From a virus, in UHGV virus genome UHGV-0076294: DNA of 64,000 nt; one strand, 5' to 3'. The first letter of the stretch is position 1, and every line of letters begins with the position of its first letter. The position numbers were made by a program, and so were the translations under genes. Positions 58,276 to 64,000 of this stretch are shown piece by piece. Under the pieces are notes generated by a model. The model did no database searches and was not told where the DNA came from. It worked only from the letters and a program-made list of their open reading frames with translations.

Positions 58276-60384
58276 ATGATACTACGTGAATCGGACTGGC
58301 GTTATTATCCAGGCGCTATTGTTGACGATAAAACAACAAACAAATCCTTTATCAAGTTTGCTAACTTACTGAAAAAATTGGGTGTAAAACACTGGTACAT
58401 TCACCTGGCGTTACATAACCCACTGTTGCAGGGCGTAGACCCGTTCGATGAAAACCTTTCAGAACAGATGAAGGCATACATCGCCATCGAATGTGCTGAG
58501 AACCCGTGGTACTGGTTCAGGGAATGTGTCAGGGTGCCTGCGGACGGTATGAAGTACGGTTCCCCGTTCCGTATCGACCGTGGTAACTTCTCGATGTACT
58601 GGATTTTCTTTAACAACATCGACGTTGCTGTAGAGTTCTTACGTCAGCACGGTAAAACCGTCGGGATGAGTGGCTTACTGCTGTGGTTGATTCGTTTCTT
58701 AGAAAACTCCCGAACAATTCTTATCACAAAAGGCCCGGCACTGCGTGAAGAAACTATCAACAAACTGAAACAACTTCGTAACGGTTTACCGAGTTACCTC
58801 TGGCCAGCGCATCCTGATGACCCAGATAACCGAGAAACCTTTGCGTGTTTAGCCCAGGGTAACAAACTGATTACAGGTATCGGCCAAAACGACCCAGAGT
58901 CCGCTAACGGTATCGGTCGTGGACTTACCGCTGGTCGTCTGTTCTCGGACGAAGGCCCCTTTACCAAAAACGTACACCACATTCTACCGGCAGCCCTGGC
59001 ATCCGGTACAGCGGCACGTCGTATTAACGAAGCGGAAGGTGTTCCTTACGGTAACGTATTCGCAACAACCCCTGGTGACTTAGCGACGGAAGAGGGCAAG
59101 TACATGTACGAGCTGATGACGTCAGGGATTATGTGGGATGAGCGCTATATCGACATTCCAACCCGTAAACAGCTCATTGACATCATCCGTTCTAACTCCA
59201 CGGCAGAAGTACCACGTATCATGTTCTACGTGAAGTACAACCACCGTCAGCTCGGTACCACCGATGAACAGTTAGCGGCAATGATTGCGAACGCCAAAGG
59301 TACCCCTGACCAGATCCGTCGTGACTTCGGTGGGGAATGGACAACCGGTGGTCTGAACAAGCCGTTCTCAGCGGAAGATGCAGATCGTATGAATGCTTCA
59401 CGAATGCGTGCAGTGTTCAAAGATATCTCACCACAAAACTACGTTACCGACTGGTACTACACCGAAGAAGAAATGATGATGAAACTCAAAGATCGTCATG
59501 TCATCGGTTTGGATACCTCCGAAGCCGTAGGTCGTGATGCGATCGCTATGTCCATCGTCAACGCGGTCACGGCCGAGTACGCCGGTAAGCTTACCGTTAA
59601 CGAATCCAACGTTATTTCGTTCGCGATCCATTTAGCGGATTTTATGGTGCGATATCCGAACACGGTACTGATTCTGGAACGACGCTCAACAGGCTCATCC
59701 GTTGCAGATGCGGTTATCCTGCAATTGCAATCACGGGTGTCCGATTTACACCGTCGTTTGTTTGTGCGAATCACCCAGGACTACTCGCGTACGGACGATC
59801 TCTACAAAGAGTATCACCGTGGCCCAGTGGGTAGCGCAGAGAAATTCTGGAATAAATTCCGCAAATACATCGGGTTCTCAACCGACCAGGAGAAACGTCG
59901 TAAACTGTACGGTGAGGTATTCACCACTGCGTTGCGCTTGTCTGCCGATAAACTCCGTTGTGGAGAGCTCATCGACCAAATTCTTAACCTCGTGGAGAAA
60001 AATGGTCGTATCGACCACAAAGCATCTGGTCACGATGACCTTGTGATTTCTTGGTTACTTGCAATGTGGTTATTGCTACTTGGGAATAACTTAGGGCATT
60101 ACGAGATCAACAACAGCCGTTTGATGATGCGTAATCGTAACTTGGCAGAAAACCGGGAAGGGGTGGACGAAGAGTTACAGCTTGAAGAGGAAGCGCGACA
60201 GCAAAAACTGATGGGGGAAATTGAGCAGTTAGTGAGAACGACCCACGGGTTACTCGACCCGGTCCAAGCAATGGCCGCTCGTAACCGACTTCAGGCCCTC
60301 ATCTCTCAACTTAACACTGATACACAAAACGTGGCGTCAATGGAAAGCTTGAGAGAGCTTCTCCAACGCCAGAGGATGAAGTGA
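58276..60384 (+). CDS. terL: terminase large subunit (T4 gp17-like)
   Basis: 702 aa. Walker A LRQHGKTV (cf. gp17 SRQLGKT), Walker B GRLFSDEGPF, nuclease Asp blocks VIGLDTSEAVGRD and SGHDDLVISWLLAMW. Confidence 0.85.
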   Translation: MILRESDWRYYPGAIVDDKTTNKSFIKFANLLKKLGVKHWYIHLALHNPLLQGVDPFDENLSEQMKAYIAIECAENPWYWFRECVRVPADGMKYGSPFRIDRGNFSMYWIFFNNIDVAVEFLRQHGKTVGMSGLLLWLIRFLENSRTILITKGPALREETINKLKQLRNGLPSYLWPAHPDDPDNRETFACLAQGNKLITGIGQNDPESANGIGRGLTAGRLFSDEGPFTKNVHHILPAALASGTAARRINEAEGVPYGNVFATTPGDLATEEGKYMYELMTSGIMWDERYIDIPTRKQLIDIIRSNSTAEVPRIMFYVKYNHRQLGTTDEQLAAMIANAKGTPDQIRRDFGGEWTTGGLNKPFSAEDADRMNASRMRAVFKDISPQNYVTDWYYTEEEMMMKLKDRHVIGLDTSEAVGRDAIAMSIVNAVTAEYAGKLTVNESNVISFAIHLADFMVRYPNTVLILERRSTGSSVADAVILQLQSRVSDLHRRLFVRITQDYSRTDDLYKEYHRGPVGSAEKFWNKFRKYIGFSTDQEKRRKLYGEVFTTALRLSADKLRCGELIDQILNLVEKNGRIDHKASGHDDLVISWLLAMWLLLLGNNLGHYEINNSRLMMRNRNLAENREGVDEELQLEEEARQQKLMGEIEQLVRTTHGLLDPVQAMAARNRLQALISQLNTDTQNVASMESLRELLQRQRMK

Positions 60385-62075: not shown

Positions 62076-62099
62076 GGATAGATATTATCCTAGTGAGAG
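62076..62099 (+). promoter_or_regulatory. promoter-like motif, copy 4: GGATAGATATTATCCTAGTGAGAG
   Basis: In a divergent intergenic region, 27 nt upstream of ATG 62126. Confidence 0.45.
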
Positions 62100-62125
62100 T
62101 CTTATTACCTAAAGGAGTTTTTACC

Positions 62126-63250
62126 ATGAGAAATTATCTGCGCAAACCCGCTTGGCACAAGATGTTGCGTGAAGGTACCATCGACCGCGAACAGCAAGTC
62201 AAGATGTGGGTGCTTCCTCACGGCGTAATTTGTGACCTGGTCAGAGTCGGTGGGATGGACATCCTGCGTAACGGTACCTACGACGCCGTCAACTCGTTCT
62301 TAGCACGAGAACTGGCGGAAGCAGGGTTACAAGGTGAGGTGTTATTTTACACCACCCGTGTTATCCCGCAAACATTGTCTAAGTGGTTAACGTACTGGCT
62401 GTCTAGTGACCCTGACGCATCAGACCCCGAACTCAGTTCGGTAACGATTACCACACTAGGCCAGTATCCCACGAAACCCTTACCATTTCAGGTGAACGTT
62501 GTTGAGCCGTTAATCGTAAAAGCCGGTGACGTGTTTGACATGATTAAAGTCAAATCCCGTAACCAAGCCGTTTCCCAGTTTATCATCGAAACGGGTGAAC
62601 ACACATTCCGATTAGAACCTGTCCGTAAAACCGATGCGACGCTGCTGGCCGTAACGGATTACGGAATCGTTTGTCGTTCTTCCGAAGGGCACACCTTCCT
62701 GTGCACGATACTCTCACGACGTATTCAGGCACAGTTAGAACACTACAAACTTTCCCTGGAAGACATCGTCGGTACGACGTTACGTATCGAATACACGATG
62801 TACACGGAAGGGAATCGGTTGTGTAATTACAAGTCCCCTATCGCATACCGAGCGTTAGCGCTGGACAACATGGGAGACTGGGTCTCAACGACATACGAAG
62901 GGCCTTCCCCGTTCAAAACCATCCCAACCCAACGACCGGCGTTGTTGACCGTCACCCGCTGTAACCGTGCCGAGATTTTCGAGGAAGAGGGTGTGATTTC
63001 CGGTTACGAACGTGAAACAGGATTAACGCTTTTCCGCTTCCGACGGGGTGCGGAGTACGGTCGCTATGCTGCCGTGTTCGAACGAGACGGTAAGCAAGAA
63101 ACCTGGCTTTTCGATTCGGATTTCTCCGTTGAGGTGATTGACCCTGAAGGCTTTGTGGCTTCAGTGGGGAGTCAGATTTTCTACGCCACGGGCTACAGCC
63201 TGCTGGACGTAAAACTGCACTACCCTCAGAAAGAACAGGTCTGTCCGTAA
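62126..63250 (+). CDS. hypothetical protein
   Basis: 374 aa from ATG 62126 (SD AAAGGAG 8 nt upstream). The track start GTG 62093 lies inside the promoter-like motif. Confidence 0.8.
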   Translation: MRNYLRKPAWHKMLREGTIDREQQVKMWVLPHGVICDLVRVGGMDILRNGTYDAVNSFLARELAEAGLQGEVLFYTTRVIPQTLSKWLTYWLSSDPDASDPELSSVTITTLGQYPTKPLPFQVNVVEPLIVKAGDVFDMIKVKSRNQAVSQFIIETGEHTFRLEPVRKTDATLLAVTDYGIVCRSSEGHTFLCTILSRRIQAQLEHYKLSLEDIVGTTLRIEYTMYTEGNRLCNYKSPIAYRALALDNMGDWVSTTYEGPSPFKTIPTQRPALLTVTRCNRAEIFEEEGVISGYERETGLTLFRFRRGAEYGRYAAVFERDGKQETWLFDSDFSVEVIDPEGFVASVGSQIFYATGYSLLDVKLHYPQKEQVCP

Positions 63251-63258
63251 AAAATTAT

Positions 63259-63298
63259 CGGGTGGCTTCGGCCACCTGTTTTTTTTTATTTTTTTTTG
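63259..63298. terminator. bidirectional terminator
   Basis: CGGGTGGC ttcg GCCACCTG followed by T9AT9; AAAAAA on the 5' side serves the opposite direction. Confidence 0.8.
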
Positions 63299-63752
63299 CC
63301 AAAAAACTTCGACCTCCTCAGAGCGATTCTAACGTATTTTTAGGTCGAGGTGGTACGTTCGTATACCCTGGGTGAGTTTTTCTCGTTAGAGAGCTTCTCA
63401 GGAAGAATTTGACGGGGTTTTATTCCCTGTCGAAGAATTTATTTTAACCCAAACCGCAACAAACCCCAAAACCGGGTGCTGGGATGTCTCTGGAAACCCT
63501 ATCCGGTTGGTGATTTTTTAACCGGATTTCGTAAAACGCTCTAGAAACGATTTTAACGCGGTTTTTACCCCTACCCAGTACACTTGGGTTACCTGATCCT
63601 GTTTAGCGCGATGTGGAGCGATTGAGAAAGCGTACGACCCATTGCCGAGGGTGGGTGAGACCCGACCCTGCCACCCGACGGCCAGCCGCCGCGCCGATCA
63701 AAAAAACATTCACGCTTCGCGTACTAACGGATCAAGTGATTGGATCAACGTT

Positions 63753-63779
63753 TTGAATCTTCACACACTGAAGATTCAA
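63753..63779. repeat. perfect 11-bp hairpin TTGAATCTTCA cacac TGAAGATTCAA
   Basis: Read directly from the sequence. Confidence 0.8.
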
Positions 63780-63816
63780 GTTGAGTAGTTATCTTGCTTG
63801 GTTTTTTAAATACTCA

Positions 63817-63837
63817 CGAGAGACCTCAAGTCTCTCG
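63817..63837. repeat. perfect 8-bp hairpin CGAGAGAC ctcaa GTCTCTCG
   Basis: Read directly from the sequence. Confidence 0.8.
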
Positions 63838-63892
63838 GATCGATCTTAAAAATTTAACTCTCTCAAAAAACCTGATCTCAAAATCTCTTCCT

Positions 63893-63920
63893 TATACGCG
63901 TGTGCGTGCGCACACGTATA
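63893..63920. repeat. 28-nt perfect alternating pyrimidine-purine tract (YR)14, also an imperfect palindrome
   Basis: TATACGCGTGTGCGTGCGCACACGTATA. TATACG/CGTATA and TGTGCG/CGCACA arms. Confidence 0.85.
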
Positions 63921-63922
63921 GT

Positions 63923-63950
63923 ATAATATATTTATTTATAAATATATTAT
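63923..63950. promoter_or_regulatory. perfect 12-bp AT-only inverted repeat (ATAATATATTTA ttta TAAATATATTAT) carrying outward-facing copies of the ATATTAT promoter-like core
   Basis: Plus strand reads AAATATATTATTCC (cf. copy 1 GATATTATTCA). Minus strand reads AAATATATTATACTATACGTGTG (cf. copy 2 GATATTATTTACGTGAG). Confidence 0.4.
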
Positions 63951-64000
63951 TCCTTTAGGATCAAAATAATAATACCTTTAGGTATTATTTAATTATATAT

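What the first reader, a model, noticed from the sequence alone, without database searches (positions are those of the whole stretch)
63299..64000. 700-bp ORF-free, structure-rich region at the right edge: candidate long non-coding transcript, origin or packaging/terminus region
In a genome with spacers of 1-90 bp, this stretch has no ORF of 60 aa or more in any frame and no SD-linked small ORF that I could find. It is bounded on the left by a bidirectional terminator (63259-63298). On the right lies an AT palindrome whose left arm reads, on the minus strand, like the promoter motif (AAATATATTATACTATACGTGTG), so a ~620-nt leftward non-coding RNA is possible. It contains perfect hairpins (63753-63779, 63817-63837), a GGGTGG...CCACCC GC-rich element (63650-63676), direct repeats (GAAGAATTT x2 at 63403 and 63432, GGATCAA x3) and four TTTTAAC(C/G) boxes.
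Basis: partly seen in the sequence, partly recalled or inferred. Interest (0 to 1): 0.6.

Follow-up and report, generated by a model that had tools for sequence, protein, structure and literature searches.

The report
Jumbo-phage non-coding control region, left half
The 700 gene-free bases at the window's edge are the left half of a 1.7-kb non-coding region conserved in SPN3US-like giant phages, built around the genome's only pure A+T block and its densest GATC cluster; it looks most like a replication (or packaging) start site and is flanked by non-coding RNA elements.

Summary
Window 63251-64000 has no conserved ORF, folds better than shuffled sequence and contains the hairpins described. 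The window cuts the feature in half: its last 34 nt equal the first 34 nt of metagenome contig SKEP01000003.1, so the region runs on for about 990 nt, about 1.74 kb in all.

The same architecture sits at the same place (after the large terminase and a 385-aa gene, before an HslV-like gene and tRNAs) in at least five lineages. From left to right: a terminator, T-rich AAC boxes, covarying hairpins, GATC clusters, a 19-28-nt alternating purine/pyrimidine GC tract, a 100-180-bp A+T block, a second GATC cluster, and a 0.45-1.4-kb structured plus-strand RNA. The centre is 92-100% identical where neighbouring genes are 77-82%.

A fixed genome terminus is not supported either.

My best reading, inferred rather than shown, is a replication origin with rightward transcription from the left arm into the A+T block (confidence 0.4). 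Rivals are a P1-like Dam-controlled pac site and a purely RNA-based function. The region is undescribed in the literature I could search and has no Rfam match.

The parts
63259..63298 (+). Intrinsic terminator of the upstream 385-aa gene. This is the left boundary of the non-coding region.
   Evidence: 8-bp GC-rich stem with a TTCG loop, followed by a T run. An equivalent terminator is present in all lineages.
63299..63500 (.). Fast-evolving proximal part of the left arm. It holds the GAAGAATTT repeats and the first TTTTAAC box at 63442.
   Evidence: Only 55-73% identical to L004, where the neighbouring coding DNA is 77-82%. No feature here is conserved across lineages.
63511..63568 (+). Cluster of T-rich AAC/AC boxes (63516 TTTTTTAACC, 63551 TTTTAACG, 63562 TTTTTACC) and the conserved block AAAACGCTCTAGAAA (63533-63547). 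These are candidate rightward promoter boxes of a second promoter class.
   Evidence: The 63516 box (T run plus an invariant ACC) is conserved in Seoulvirus, Erskinevirus and lineages D and E, but lost in the L004 group. Elsewhere, TTTTTAC/TTTTAAC sits mostly 25-60 nt upstream of plus-strand genes: 20 of 51 hits fall in the 8% of sequence that is intergenic. TTTTTAC is 11-fold enriched in SPN3US intergenic DNA. Function is inferred.
63573..63589 (+). Conserved hairpin/sequence block ACCCAGTACACTTGGGT (hpA).
   Evidence: GTAC and GG-T are invariant. Pair 105/113 is A-U in 3 sequences, G-C in 3 and G-U in 7. Pair 106/112 is G-U in 12. This fits the plus-strand sense only.
63649..63676 (.). GC-rich GGGTGG...CCACCC element inside a variable GC-rich spacer.
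   Evidence: Present in the window. Sequence and length vary between lineages, and only the GC-richness is kept.
63685..63703 (.). Nearly invariant block GCCGCCGCGCCGATCAAAA, containing the first conserved GATC.
   Evidence: CCGCC, CG and CGATCA are invariant in 13 sequences from 5 lineages.
63712..63722 (+). Small hairpin H0, ACGC-TTC-GCGT.
   Evidence: Compensatory changes: ACGC/GCGT, GCAC/GTGC and CCGC/GCGG.
63729..63748 (.). Two GGATCAA boxes (63729 and 63742).
   Evidence: Part of the GATC cluster. The second box overlaps the outer stem of H1, and TGGATC is conserved.
63745..63784 (+). Long interrupted hairpin H1. The outer helix is TCAAC/GTTGA; the inner helix has 11 bp (63753-63779) with a CACAC loop. 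A U-rich tail follows in relatives.
   Evidence: Perfect arms (I5). 10 of the 16 pairs show changes on both sides across lineages. Tails such as GUUCUUUU and GUGCUUUU follow the stem in other lineages.
63818..63838 (+). Hairpin H2, CGAGAGAC-CTCAA-GTCTCTCG.
   Evidence: Read. The loop varies while the stem is kept in L004, L005 and L216. At the same position other lineages carry a different hairpin: TCCCC/GGGGA, CCGGCC/GGCCGG and AGCCAGC/GCTGGCT.
63838..63877 (.). GATC sites of the left cluster (GATCGATC at 63838-63845, GATC at 63874) and the conserved TTAAA..ACT block.
   Evidence: A pair of GATC sites lies just left of the GC tract in most lineages.
63888..63920 (.). TTCCT + TATACGCGTGTGCGTGCGCACACGTATA: a 28-nt alternating purine/pyrimidine GC tract containing the palindrome 63899-63916. 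It is the left clamp of the A+T block.
   Evidence: Palindrome: I21. A homologous 15-25-nt tract is the longest such run in the loci of lineages B-E and lies 64-122 nt left of the A+T centre. It is 98% identical to L004.
63923..63950 (.). AT palindrome (13-nt arms).
   Evidence: I2. It is an insertion specific to the window clade. Its promoter score is 4.9 bits or less, against 26-35 bits for real sites.
63950..63962 (.). TTCCTTTAGGATC dyad box at the left border of the A+T block.
   Evidence: Homologous to TCCTCCAGGATC and TTCCTACAGGGATC in the other lineages.
63963..64000 (.). Start of the pure A+T block, including the palindrome AATAATACCT-TT-AGGTATTATT (63968-63989). The block continues beyond the window to about 64101.
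   Evidence: This is the only stretch of 80% A+T or more in the 74 kb I could read (63909-64133); the longest pure A/T run is 119 nt. In SPN3US it is the only block of 85% A+T or more in 240 kb. The continuation was read from L209.

Best explanation
The finding is the left arm of a single ~1.74-kb cis-acting non-coding control region of an SPN3US-like (nucleus-forming, phiKZ-related) jumbo phage. Its core is a DNA-unwinding-type element: a 100-180-bp A+T block carrying internal dyads, clamped on both sides by GC-rich alternating purine/pyrimidine palindromes and by clusters of GATC sites.

I propose that this is the phage's origin of DNA replication, and that it works as a transcription-activated origin. 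Rightward transcription would start at the T-rich AAC boxes of the left arm (around 63516), run through the hairpin module (hpA, H0, H1, H2) and enter the A+T block. There it would help to open the duplex or supply a primer, as at the T7 primary origin, T4 oriF/oriG or ColE1. The GATC clusters would let the phage-encoded adenine methylase mark the state of the site. The right arm, beyond the window, encodes a separate structured plus-strand RNA.

Shown: the anatomy, the conservation, the covariation of the hairpins, the uniqueness of the A+T block and the GATC cluster, and the structured RNA in the right arm.

Inferred: that replication starts here, that the boxes are promoters, that the left arm is transcribed rightward, and that GATC methylation matters.
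For: - The window ends inside the element. Its last 34 nt equal the start of L209.
- The architecture and genomic position are conserved in lineages A-E, although the adjacent protein falls to 44-63% identity.
- Selection is strongest at the centre: 63893-64392 is 92-100% identical to L004, against 77-82% for the neighbouring gene.
- The A+T block is unique in the 74 kb of the window's genome that I could read and in the whole 240-kb SPN3US genome.
- GATC is avoided genome-wide: 183 sites against 286 expected here, and 489 against 937 in SPN3US. Yet 14 sites lie in 63595-64273, where 1.6 are expected (P = 1.4e-9). The enrichment is 6-18-fold in every lineage.
- SPN3US carries genes annotated as DNA adenine methylase and RNase H.
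- The left-arm hairpins covary: 82.8% of cells paired against 70.1% in shuffles (0/500), with 12 pairs changed on both sides.
- Orientation cues point rightward.
- Detrended cumulative GC skew in SPN3US has its minimum at 0-8 kb, next to the region, and its maximum at 112 kb, roughly opposite. This is confounded by gene orientation.
- A 2026 review of jumbo phages does not mention any replication origin.
Against: - There is no direct evidence of initiation here.
- I recognised no iterons, no DnaA boxes and no IHF site, and no initiator gene lies next door: the neighbours are the terminase, proteins of unknown function and an HslV-like protein.
- The raw cumulative GC skew simply follows gene orientation and shows no V shape. 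Genes on both sides run the same way.
- The T-rich boxes overlap terminator T runs, so their role as promoters is unproven. The best-conserved box (63516) is lost in the closest sister group (L004, L005, L216).
- Derbicusvirus (Phobos) has no such region at the same position.
- Host Dam and SeqA would probably be excluded from a phage nucleus, and the specificity of the phage methylase is unknown.
Confidence: 0.4

Rival explanations
1. Packaging initiation (pac) site. The terminase would recognise the dyads and GATC boxes and make the first cut of a headful series in or near the A+T block. Cutting would be gated by adenine methylation, as at phage P1 pac, where GATC-containing hexamers flank the cut site (my own knowledge: Sternberg and Coulby 1990).
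For: - The region lies 2.9 kb downstream of the large terminase gene, in the same orientation.
- GATC clusters lie on both sides of a central spacer.
- The phage lineage encodes an annotated adenine methylase.
- Several metagenome contigs, and the SPN3US record, begin or end in or beside the A+T block.
Against: - At 1.7 kb, with a 119-nt A/T run, it is far larger and more complex than known pac sites.
- There is no IHF consensus.
- The contig breaks are expected at such a low-complexity palindromic stretch.
- The SPFM isolate records are permuted arbitrarily, with the region internal.
- No small terminase subunit is identified nearby.
- It does not explain the rightward transcription signals or the adjacent structured RNA.
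Confidence: 0.2
2. Non-coding RNA locus only. The left arm would encode a ~270-nt plus-strand small RNA, running from the TTTTTTAACC box at 63516 to the H1 hairpin with its U-rich tail at about 63800. The right arm would encode one or two larger structured RNAs. The A+T block and its clamps would be just promoter, terminator or insulator DNA between these genes.
For: - The right-arm 3' domain is a well-supported RNA: 32 pairs, 13 of them with compensatory changes; 97.3% of cells paired against 87.2% in shuffles (0/500); 58 G-U cells against 2 A-C; and a GNRA-capped hairpin.
- The left-arm hairpins covary, and hpA uses G-U pairs in the plus-strand sense.
- Hairpin-plus-T sites are in excess and biased to the plus strand: 10 against 2.2 expected, and 7 against 2.0.
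- The distance from box to H1 stays within 240-315 nt across lineages.
Against: - The strongest conservation is in the A+T block and its flanks (92-100%), not in the left-arm body (55-73%).
- An RNA-only model does not explain the GATC clustering, the alternating purine/pyrimidine tract or the uniqueness of the A+T block.
- The H0/H1/H2 stems are almost purely Watson-Crick, so they could act equally well as DNA hairpins or cruciforms.
- RNAalifold found no consistent long-range fold in the left arm.
- No canonical promoter of the shared class lies in the region.
Confidence: 0.2
3. One reading: a ~620-nt leftward non-coding RNA that starts at the left arm of the AT palindrome (minus strand, about 63905) and ends at the 63259-63298 hairpin.
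For: - The minus strand contains ATATATTAT, the core of the promoter motif.
- The minus strand folds slightly better, z = -4.2 against -3.1.
- A weak minus-strand terminator exists at 63276-63261.
Against: - The promoter score is 1.5 bits or less, against 26-35 bits for the 24 real sites. The site lacks the upstream CAGATAG and has the wrong spacing to GTGAG.
- The palindrome is absent from the other lineages.
- The G-U pairs in hpA would become C-A mismatches on the minus strand.
- All 24 promoters of this class are on the plus strand.
Confidence: 0.05
4. Fixed physical genome end: terminal repeats or a cos-like terminus inside the A+T block.
For: - Contig ends lie in the A+T block in at least five assemblies.
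- Most GenBank records of relatives are linearised within 1-4.5 kb of it.
Against: - The contig behind the window closes on itself with a 34-nt overlap.
- L003, L004 and the phiEaH2, SPAsTU and SPFM records read straight through the region.
- Linearisation near it most likely follows the SPN3US/phiEaH2 convention.
Confidence: 0.03

Closest known systems
Transcription-activated phage and plasmid origins: T7 primary origin (promoters 1.1A/B followed by an AT-rich stretch), T4 oriF/oriG (promoter followed by a DNA-unwinding element, with an R-loop primer) and ColE1 RNA II
   Same: Promoter-like boxes aimed at an easily melted A+T block; a hairpin-rich transcript region upstream of it; a phage that brings its own RNA polymerases; an RNase H annotated in SPN3US.
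   Different: No transcript, R-loop or initiation has been mapped here. The region is much larger, and it carries GATC clusters and alternating purine/pyrimidine clamps that those origins lack. The comparison rests on my own knowledge of those systems.
Enterobacterial oriC and P1 oriR (GATC-rich A+T unwinding regions under Dam/SeqA control)
   Same: The highest GATC density in the genome sits at the borders of an A+T block. The left border sequence GATCTTTTAA in relatives resembles the start of the oriC 13-mer GATCTnTTnTTTT.
   Different: There are no DnaA boxes, no recognisable iterons and no IHF site. Replication of such phages takes place inside a protein-walled nucleus from which host factors are thought to be excluded.
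Phage P1 pac site
   Same: Two groups of GATC-containing short boxes flank a central spacer; a phage-encoded adenine methylase is present in the lineage; the site is close to the terminase gene.
   Different: P1 pac is about 160 bp with TGATCA/G hexamers and an IHF site. Here the boxes are mostly GGATC(A/G), the spacer is a 100-180-bp A+T block, and the whole region is ten times longer.
Large structured phage-associated RNAs found next to tRNA genes (GOLLD, ROOL). This comparison applies to the right arm only.
   Same: A structured RNA several hundred nucleotides long in a phage genome, close to tRNA genes, with variable peripheral insertions.
   Different: No Rfam family matches at E of 1 or below. 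Only the 3' ~230 nt have been modelled. No multimer or function is known.

Membership tests
DnaA-dependent origin (oriC / P1 oriR type) | DnaA boxes (TTWTNCACA) next to the unwinding element | tested here: not met
   No match in 63251-65000 on either strand, even with a relaxed pattern.
DnaA-dependent origin (oriC / P1 oriR type) | A+T-rich unwinding element with clustered GATC sites | tested here: met
   Unique A+T block at 63909-64133. 14 GATC sites against 1.6 expected, P = 1.4e-9. The same holds in all lineages.
Iteron-type phage/plasmid origin | Several direct repeats of 17-22 bp that bind an initiator encoded nearby | tested here: not met
   The repeat finder gives only short two-copy families. 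The recurring units are 6-7 nt (GGATCA/G). No initiator-like gene is adjacent.
Transcription-activated origin (T7, T4 oriF/G, ColE1 type) | Promoter directed into an unwinding element | tested here: inconclusive
   Four plus-strand T-rich AAC/AC boxes lie 350-480 nt upstream of the A+T block. Such boxes precede plus-strand genes elsewhere. Their promoter function is unproven, and the main box is lost in the L004 group.
Transcription-activated origin (T7, T4 oriF/G, ColE1 type) | Initiation of DNA synthesis mapped at the site; a persistent RNA-DNA hybrid | not testable with these tools
   Needs marker-frequency analysis, 2D gels or R-loop mapping.
P1-type pac site | Clusters of GATC-containing boxes flanking the cut site | tested here: met
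   Seven GATC sites at 63696-63959 on the left of the pure A/T run (an eighth lies further out at 63595) and six at 64109-64270 on the right.
P1-type pac site | IHF site between the clusters; about 160 bp in size | tested here: not met
   No IHF consensus. The element spans about 680 bp at its core and 1.74 kb overall.
P1-type pac site | Terminase cleavage at the site in virion DNA | not testable with these tools
   Needs virion-DNA end mapping. Isolate records are arbitrarily permuted, which neither proves nor excludes a pac site.
phiKZ-group virion-RNA-polymerase (early) promoter | Extended AT-rich consensus with the start site a fixed distance downstream | tested here: not met
   The consensus TTTCAGATAGATATTATCTAGGTGAGAG was derived from 24 sites. 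Sites in the non-coding region score 4.9 bits or less against 26-35 bits. For comparison, the AR9 consensus is AAATATATATTAT-N6-G (PMC5312081).
Any Rfam RNA family | Covariance-model match | tested here: not met
   No hit at gathering score anywhere in the window. No relevant hit at E of 1 or below in L003 11100-14200 or L001 5700-7600.

The most novel reading that the evidence does not exclude
This is the first recognisable replication origin of a nucleus-forming jumbo phage lineage: a Dam-marked A+T unwinding element whose firing is driven or primed by phage-polymerase transcripts from flanking non-coding RNA genes. One of those genes would be a new ~0.8-kb structured RNA (beyond the window edge) that tolerates a homing-endonuclease insertion in one of its loops.
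Probability: 0.25. Interest if true: 0.8.

Novelty: new variant of a known kind. Interest (0 to 1): 0.6.

Why it matters
How nucleus-forming jumbo phages start replicating and packaging their DNA is not known. The 2026 review I read names no origin. This region is the one obviously special cis-element in these 225-250-kb genomes: the only A+T block, the only GATC cluster, and more conserved than the genes around it.

It therefore gives a precise, testable target for marker-frequency mapping, end mapping, transcription-start mapping and antisense or deletion experiments. It is also a candidate part for engineering or rebooting such phages. The adjacent structured RNA would add a new large phage RNA class.

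On the practical side, the A+T block explains why assemblies of these phages break at this spot, and why database records start there.

Tried and rejected
- Near-identity search of the phage collection: no match. The distant search found only 15-25% coverage in Seoulvirus.
- Rfam and tRNA scans of the window: nothing. Rfam E-value scans of the full region in two lineages: nothing relevant.
- Pfam on six neighbouring proteins: no hits. PHROGs named only the terminase and the HslV-like protein.
- The 14-mer and 17-mer scans of viral and metagenome contigs returned mostly chance hits and had to be filtered by BLAST.
- The protein-alignment scan of viral contigs added few loci.
- Raw cumulative GC skew of SPN3US follows gene orientation only. 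The detrended curve is suggestive but confounded.
- RNAalifold on the whole left arm gave a weak consensus (-4 kcal/mol). It included a long-range GCCGCCGCG/CGCGTGCGC helix with no compensatory change, which I do not accept. Single-sequence folds of the left arm show no common architecture beyond the hairpins.
- Small ORFs: rejected as coding.
- DnaA and IHF motif searches: negative.
- Literature searches for SPN3US non-coding regions, origins, transcriptomes, and phiKZ origins or pac sites found no description of this region.
- Phobos (Derbicusvirus) was checked for the same architecture and does not have it at that position.
Full report
**What the window is.**
The window comes from a jumbo phage related to Salmonella phage SPN3US (Seoulvirus) and Erwinia phage phiEaH2 (Erskinevirus).
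- The 702-aa ORF at 58276-60384 is the large terminase.
- The 385-aa ORF at 62093-63250 has homologues in 61 phage records at 39-63% identity.
- The gene order is the same in those records: terminase, a 79-aa ORF, a 458-aa ORF on the minus strand, the 385-aa ORF, a non-coding region, an HslV-like gene, then tRNAs.

**The window cuts the feature.**
The last 34 nt of the window are identical to the first 34 nt of metagenome contig SKEP01000003.1 (224,834 bp; L209). The window is therefore almost certainly the 3' end of a contig that closes on itself. Joining the two gives a non-coding region from 63251 to about 64990, roughly 1.74 kb. A 98%-identical IMG/VR contig (L003) reads straight through it.

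**Check of the observation.**
The region has no ORF of 60 aa or more and is the largest gap in the window.
- Three of the five small ORFs are broken in close relatives. The two that stay open have unconserved protein sequence.
- The hairpins, palindromes and GC element exist.
- The stretch 63500-63900 folds better than dinucleotide shuffles on both strands, z = -3.1 and -4.2.
- The upstream terminator is strong on the plus strand and weak on the minus strand.
- The GGATCAA repeats belong to a GATC cluster (see below).
- Three TTTTAAC(C/G) boxes and one TTTTTAC box lie on the plus strand within 63442-63568.

**Anatomy, from comparison of lineages.**
I compared these lineages:

| Lineage | Members |
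|---|---|
| A | window, L003, L004, L005, L216 |
| B | Seoulvirus L001, SPAsTU L008 |
| C | phiEaH2 L007, L027 |
| D | Wellington L255, L046, L097, L099 |
| E | L112, Caitlin, Huxley |

All share the following order, left to right:
1. A terminator.
2. One or two T-rich AACC boxes.
3. AAAACGCTCTAGAAA.
4. ACCC(A/G)GTACAYTYGGGT.
5. A variable GC-rich spacer.
6. CCGCCGCG(A/C)CGATCAAAA.
7. A small hairpin, H0.
8. TGGATC overlapping a long interrupted hairpin (H1), followed by a U-rich tail.
9. A second hairpin, H2, whose sequence differs in each lineage.
10. A TTTTTAAA..ACTTA block.
11. A pair of GATC sites.
12. TTCCTTATA followed by a 19-28-nt alternating purine/pyrimidine GC tract.
13. A TCCTnnAGGATC dyad.
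14. A 100-180-bp A+T block with internal dyads of the form A/T arm - CTTTAG - A/T arm.
15. AAAACGCG..GCGCGTGATCCTTATTAnGAGATC..GATC.
16. A right arm of 440-1380 nt, ending in a TTTTTTAC(A/G)G box just before the first gene.

**Conservation.**
Against L004, coding DNA is 77-82% identical. The profile across the region is:

| Coordinates | Identity to L004 |
|---|---|
| 63293-63692 | 55-73% |
| 63693-63892 | 81-88% |
| 63893-64392 | 92-100% |
| 64693-64992 | 96-97% |

The centre and the end of the right arm are therefore under stronger constraint than the neighbouring proteins.

**Unique composition.**
- The only stretch of 80% A+T or more in the 74 kb I could read is 63909-64133. It contains a 119-nt pure A/T run.
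- In SPN3US the homologous block is the only 80-nt window of 85% A+T or more in 240 kb.
- GATC is avoided genome-wide: 183 sites against 286 expected here, and 489 against 937 in SPN3US.
- Even so, 14 GATC sites lie in 63595-64273 where 1.6 are expected, P = 1.4e-9. This is the densest spot in both genomes, and the enrichment is 6-18-fold in every lineage.
- SPN3US carries a gene annotated as DNA adenine methylase.
- No DnaA box and no IHF consensus is present.

**Hairpins.**
For hpA, H0 and extended H1, 82.8% of cells pair against 70.1% in shuffles (0/500). The covariation score is 0.357 against 0.153 (0/500). Slid controls pair at 29-48%, and 12 pairs changed on both sides.
- H0, H1 and H2 are almost purely Watson-Crick. 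They could act as RNA or as DNA hairpins.
- hpA has 19 G-U cells, which fits the plus-strand sense.

**Promoters.**
A strong motif, TTTCAGATAGATATTATCTAGGTGAGAG, recurs 6 times in the window's genome and 18 times in SPN3US. It is always on the plus strand and intergenic. It resembles the virion-polymerase early promoters described for this phage group (PMC5312081).
- A matrix built from these sites scores them at 26-35 bits.
- The leftward RNA is therefore not supported.
- TTTTTAC/TTTTAAC boxes are enriched in intergenic DNA and sit 25-60 nt upstream of plus-strand genes. They may be a second promoter class, but this is inference.
- Terminator-like hairpin-plus-T sites in the region are in excess and biased to the plus strand: 8 to 2 in L001 and 7 to 0 in L007.

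**Terminus question.**
Contigs L005/L024, L006, L045 and the window/L209 contig end in the A+T block, and SPN3US base 1 lies about 100 nt to its left. However, other assemblies and the isolate records read through the block, and the SPFM isolates are linearised at arbitrary places. I read the breaks as assembly failures at a low-complexity palindromic stretch.

**Right arm (outside the window).**
The last ~230 nt form a conserved multi-helix fold.
- It has 32 pairs, 13 of them with compensatory changes, and 97.3% of cells pair against 87.2% in shuffles (0/500).
- There are 58 G-U cells against 2 A-C cells, and an invariant CUUGGCGGCUCGGAAAGACGAGAGGGG.
- A terminal hairpin has a stem that covaries (CGUU/AACG with CGCU/AGCG) under a GNRA loop.
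- It is a plus-strand RNA with no Rfam match.
- In Wellington an HNH endonuclease ORF sits inside one of its loops.

**Interpretation.**
That this is a conserved cis-acting control region is well supported. What it controls is inferred.
- I favour a replication origin activated by rightward transcription from the left arm (0.4).
- GC skew does not discriminate between them.
- No paper in the searchable library describes the region.

Noticed in passing
L209 142-975 (continuation of the window; equals joined coordinates about 64108-64941). The 3' domain is L209 740-971.: A structured plus-strand RNA of about 0.8 kb with no Rfam match lies between the A+T block and the HslV-like gene and tRNAs. 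Its 3' domain has 13 covarying pairs, a GNRA-capped hairpin and an invariant 27-nt core. Its length varies from 440 to 1380 nt between lineages.
   Followed up: partly
L255 (Erwinia phage Wellington) 7129-7638: An annotated HNH endonuclease gene is inserted into a peripheral hairpin loop of the right-arm RNA. Compare L099, which lacks the insertion. L097 has a similarly lengthened arm.
   Followed up: partly
window 7805, 16905, 47298, 62082 (plus strand); also 67387 and 69774 in the continuation: A highly conserved promoter-like motif, TTTCAGATAGATATTATCTAGGTGAGAG, is shared with SPN3US (18 sites), always on the plus strand and intergenic. It is probably the virion-RNA-polymerase early promoter of this clade.
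   Followed up: partly
window 62093-62123: The listed GTG start of the 385-aa ORF lies inside the promoter-like motif at 62082-62097, and homology to relatives begins at about residue 10. The true start is probably the ATG at 62123.
   Followed up: no
window 171, 4842, 10171, 12876, 21136, 21530, 44796, 46614, 47267: TTTTTAC/TTTTTAAC boxes lie mostly 25-60 nt upstream of plus-strand genes, often just after a terminator. They may be a second (middle or late) promoter class. The same box precedes the first gene after the non-coding region in most of the lineages examined (SPAsTU, with an extra inserted gene, lacks it).
   Followed up: partly
whole window and SPN3US genome (L250-L254): GATC is under-represented about 1.6-fold in the window's genome and about 1.9-fold in SPN3US, although SPN3US encodes an annotated adenine methylase (SPN3US_0105).
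   Followed up: partly
window 64000 / L209 1-34; also L005/L024, L006 and L045: At least four independent metagenome assemblies of these phages break inside the same A+T block. The window's own contig closes on itself with a 34-nt overlap that includes the palindrome AATAATACCTTTAGGTATTATT.
   Followed up: yes
L256 (Erwinia phage Phobos) 5660-6212: At the same position Derbicusvirus has only a ~550-nt spacer with a moderately AT-rich stretch and one early-type promoter. It has no GATC cluster and no GC clamp. The elaborate region is therefore restricted to the SPN3US/Erskine/Wellington/Machina group, or lies elsewhere in Derbicusvirus.
   Followed up: partly
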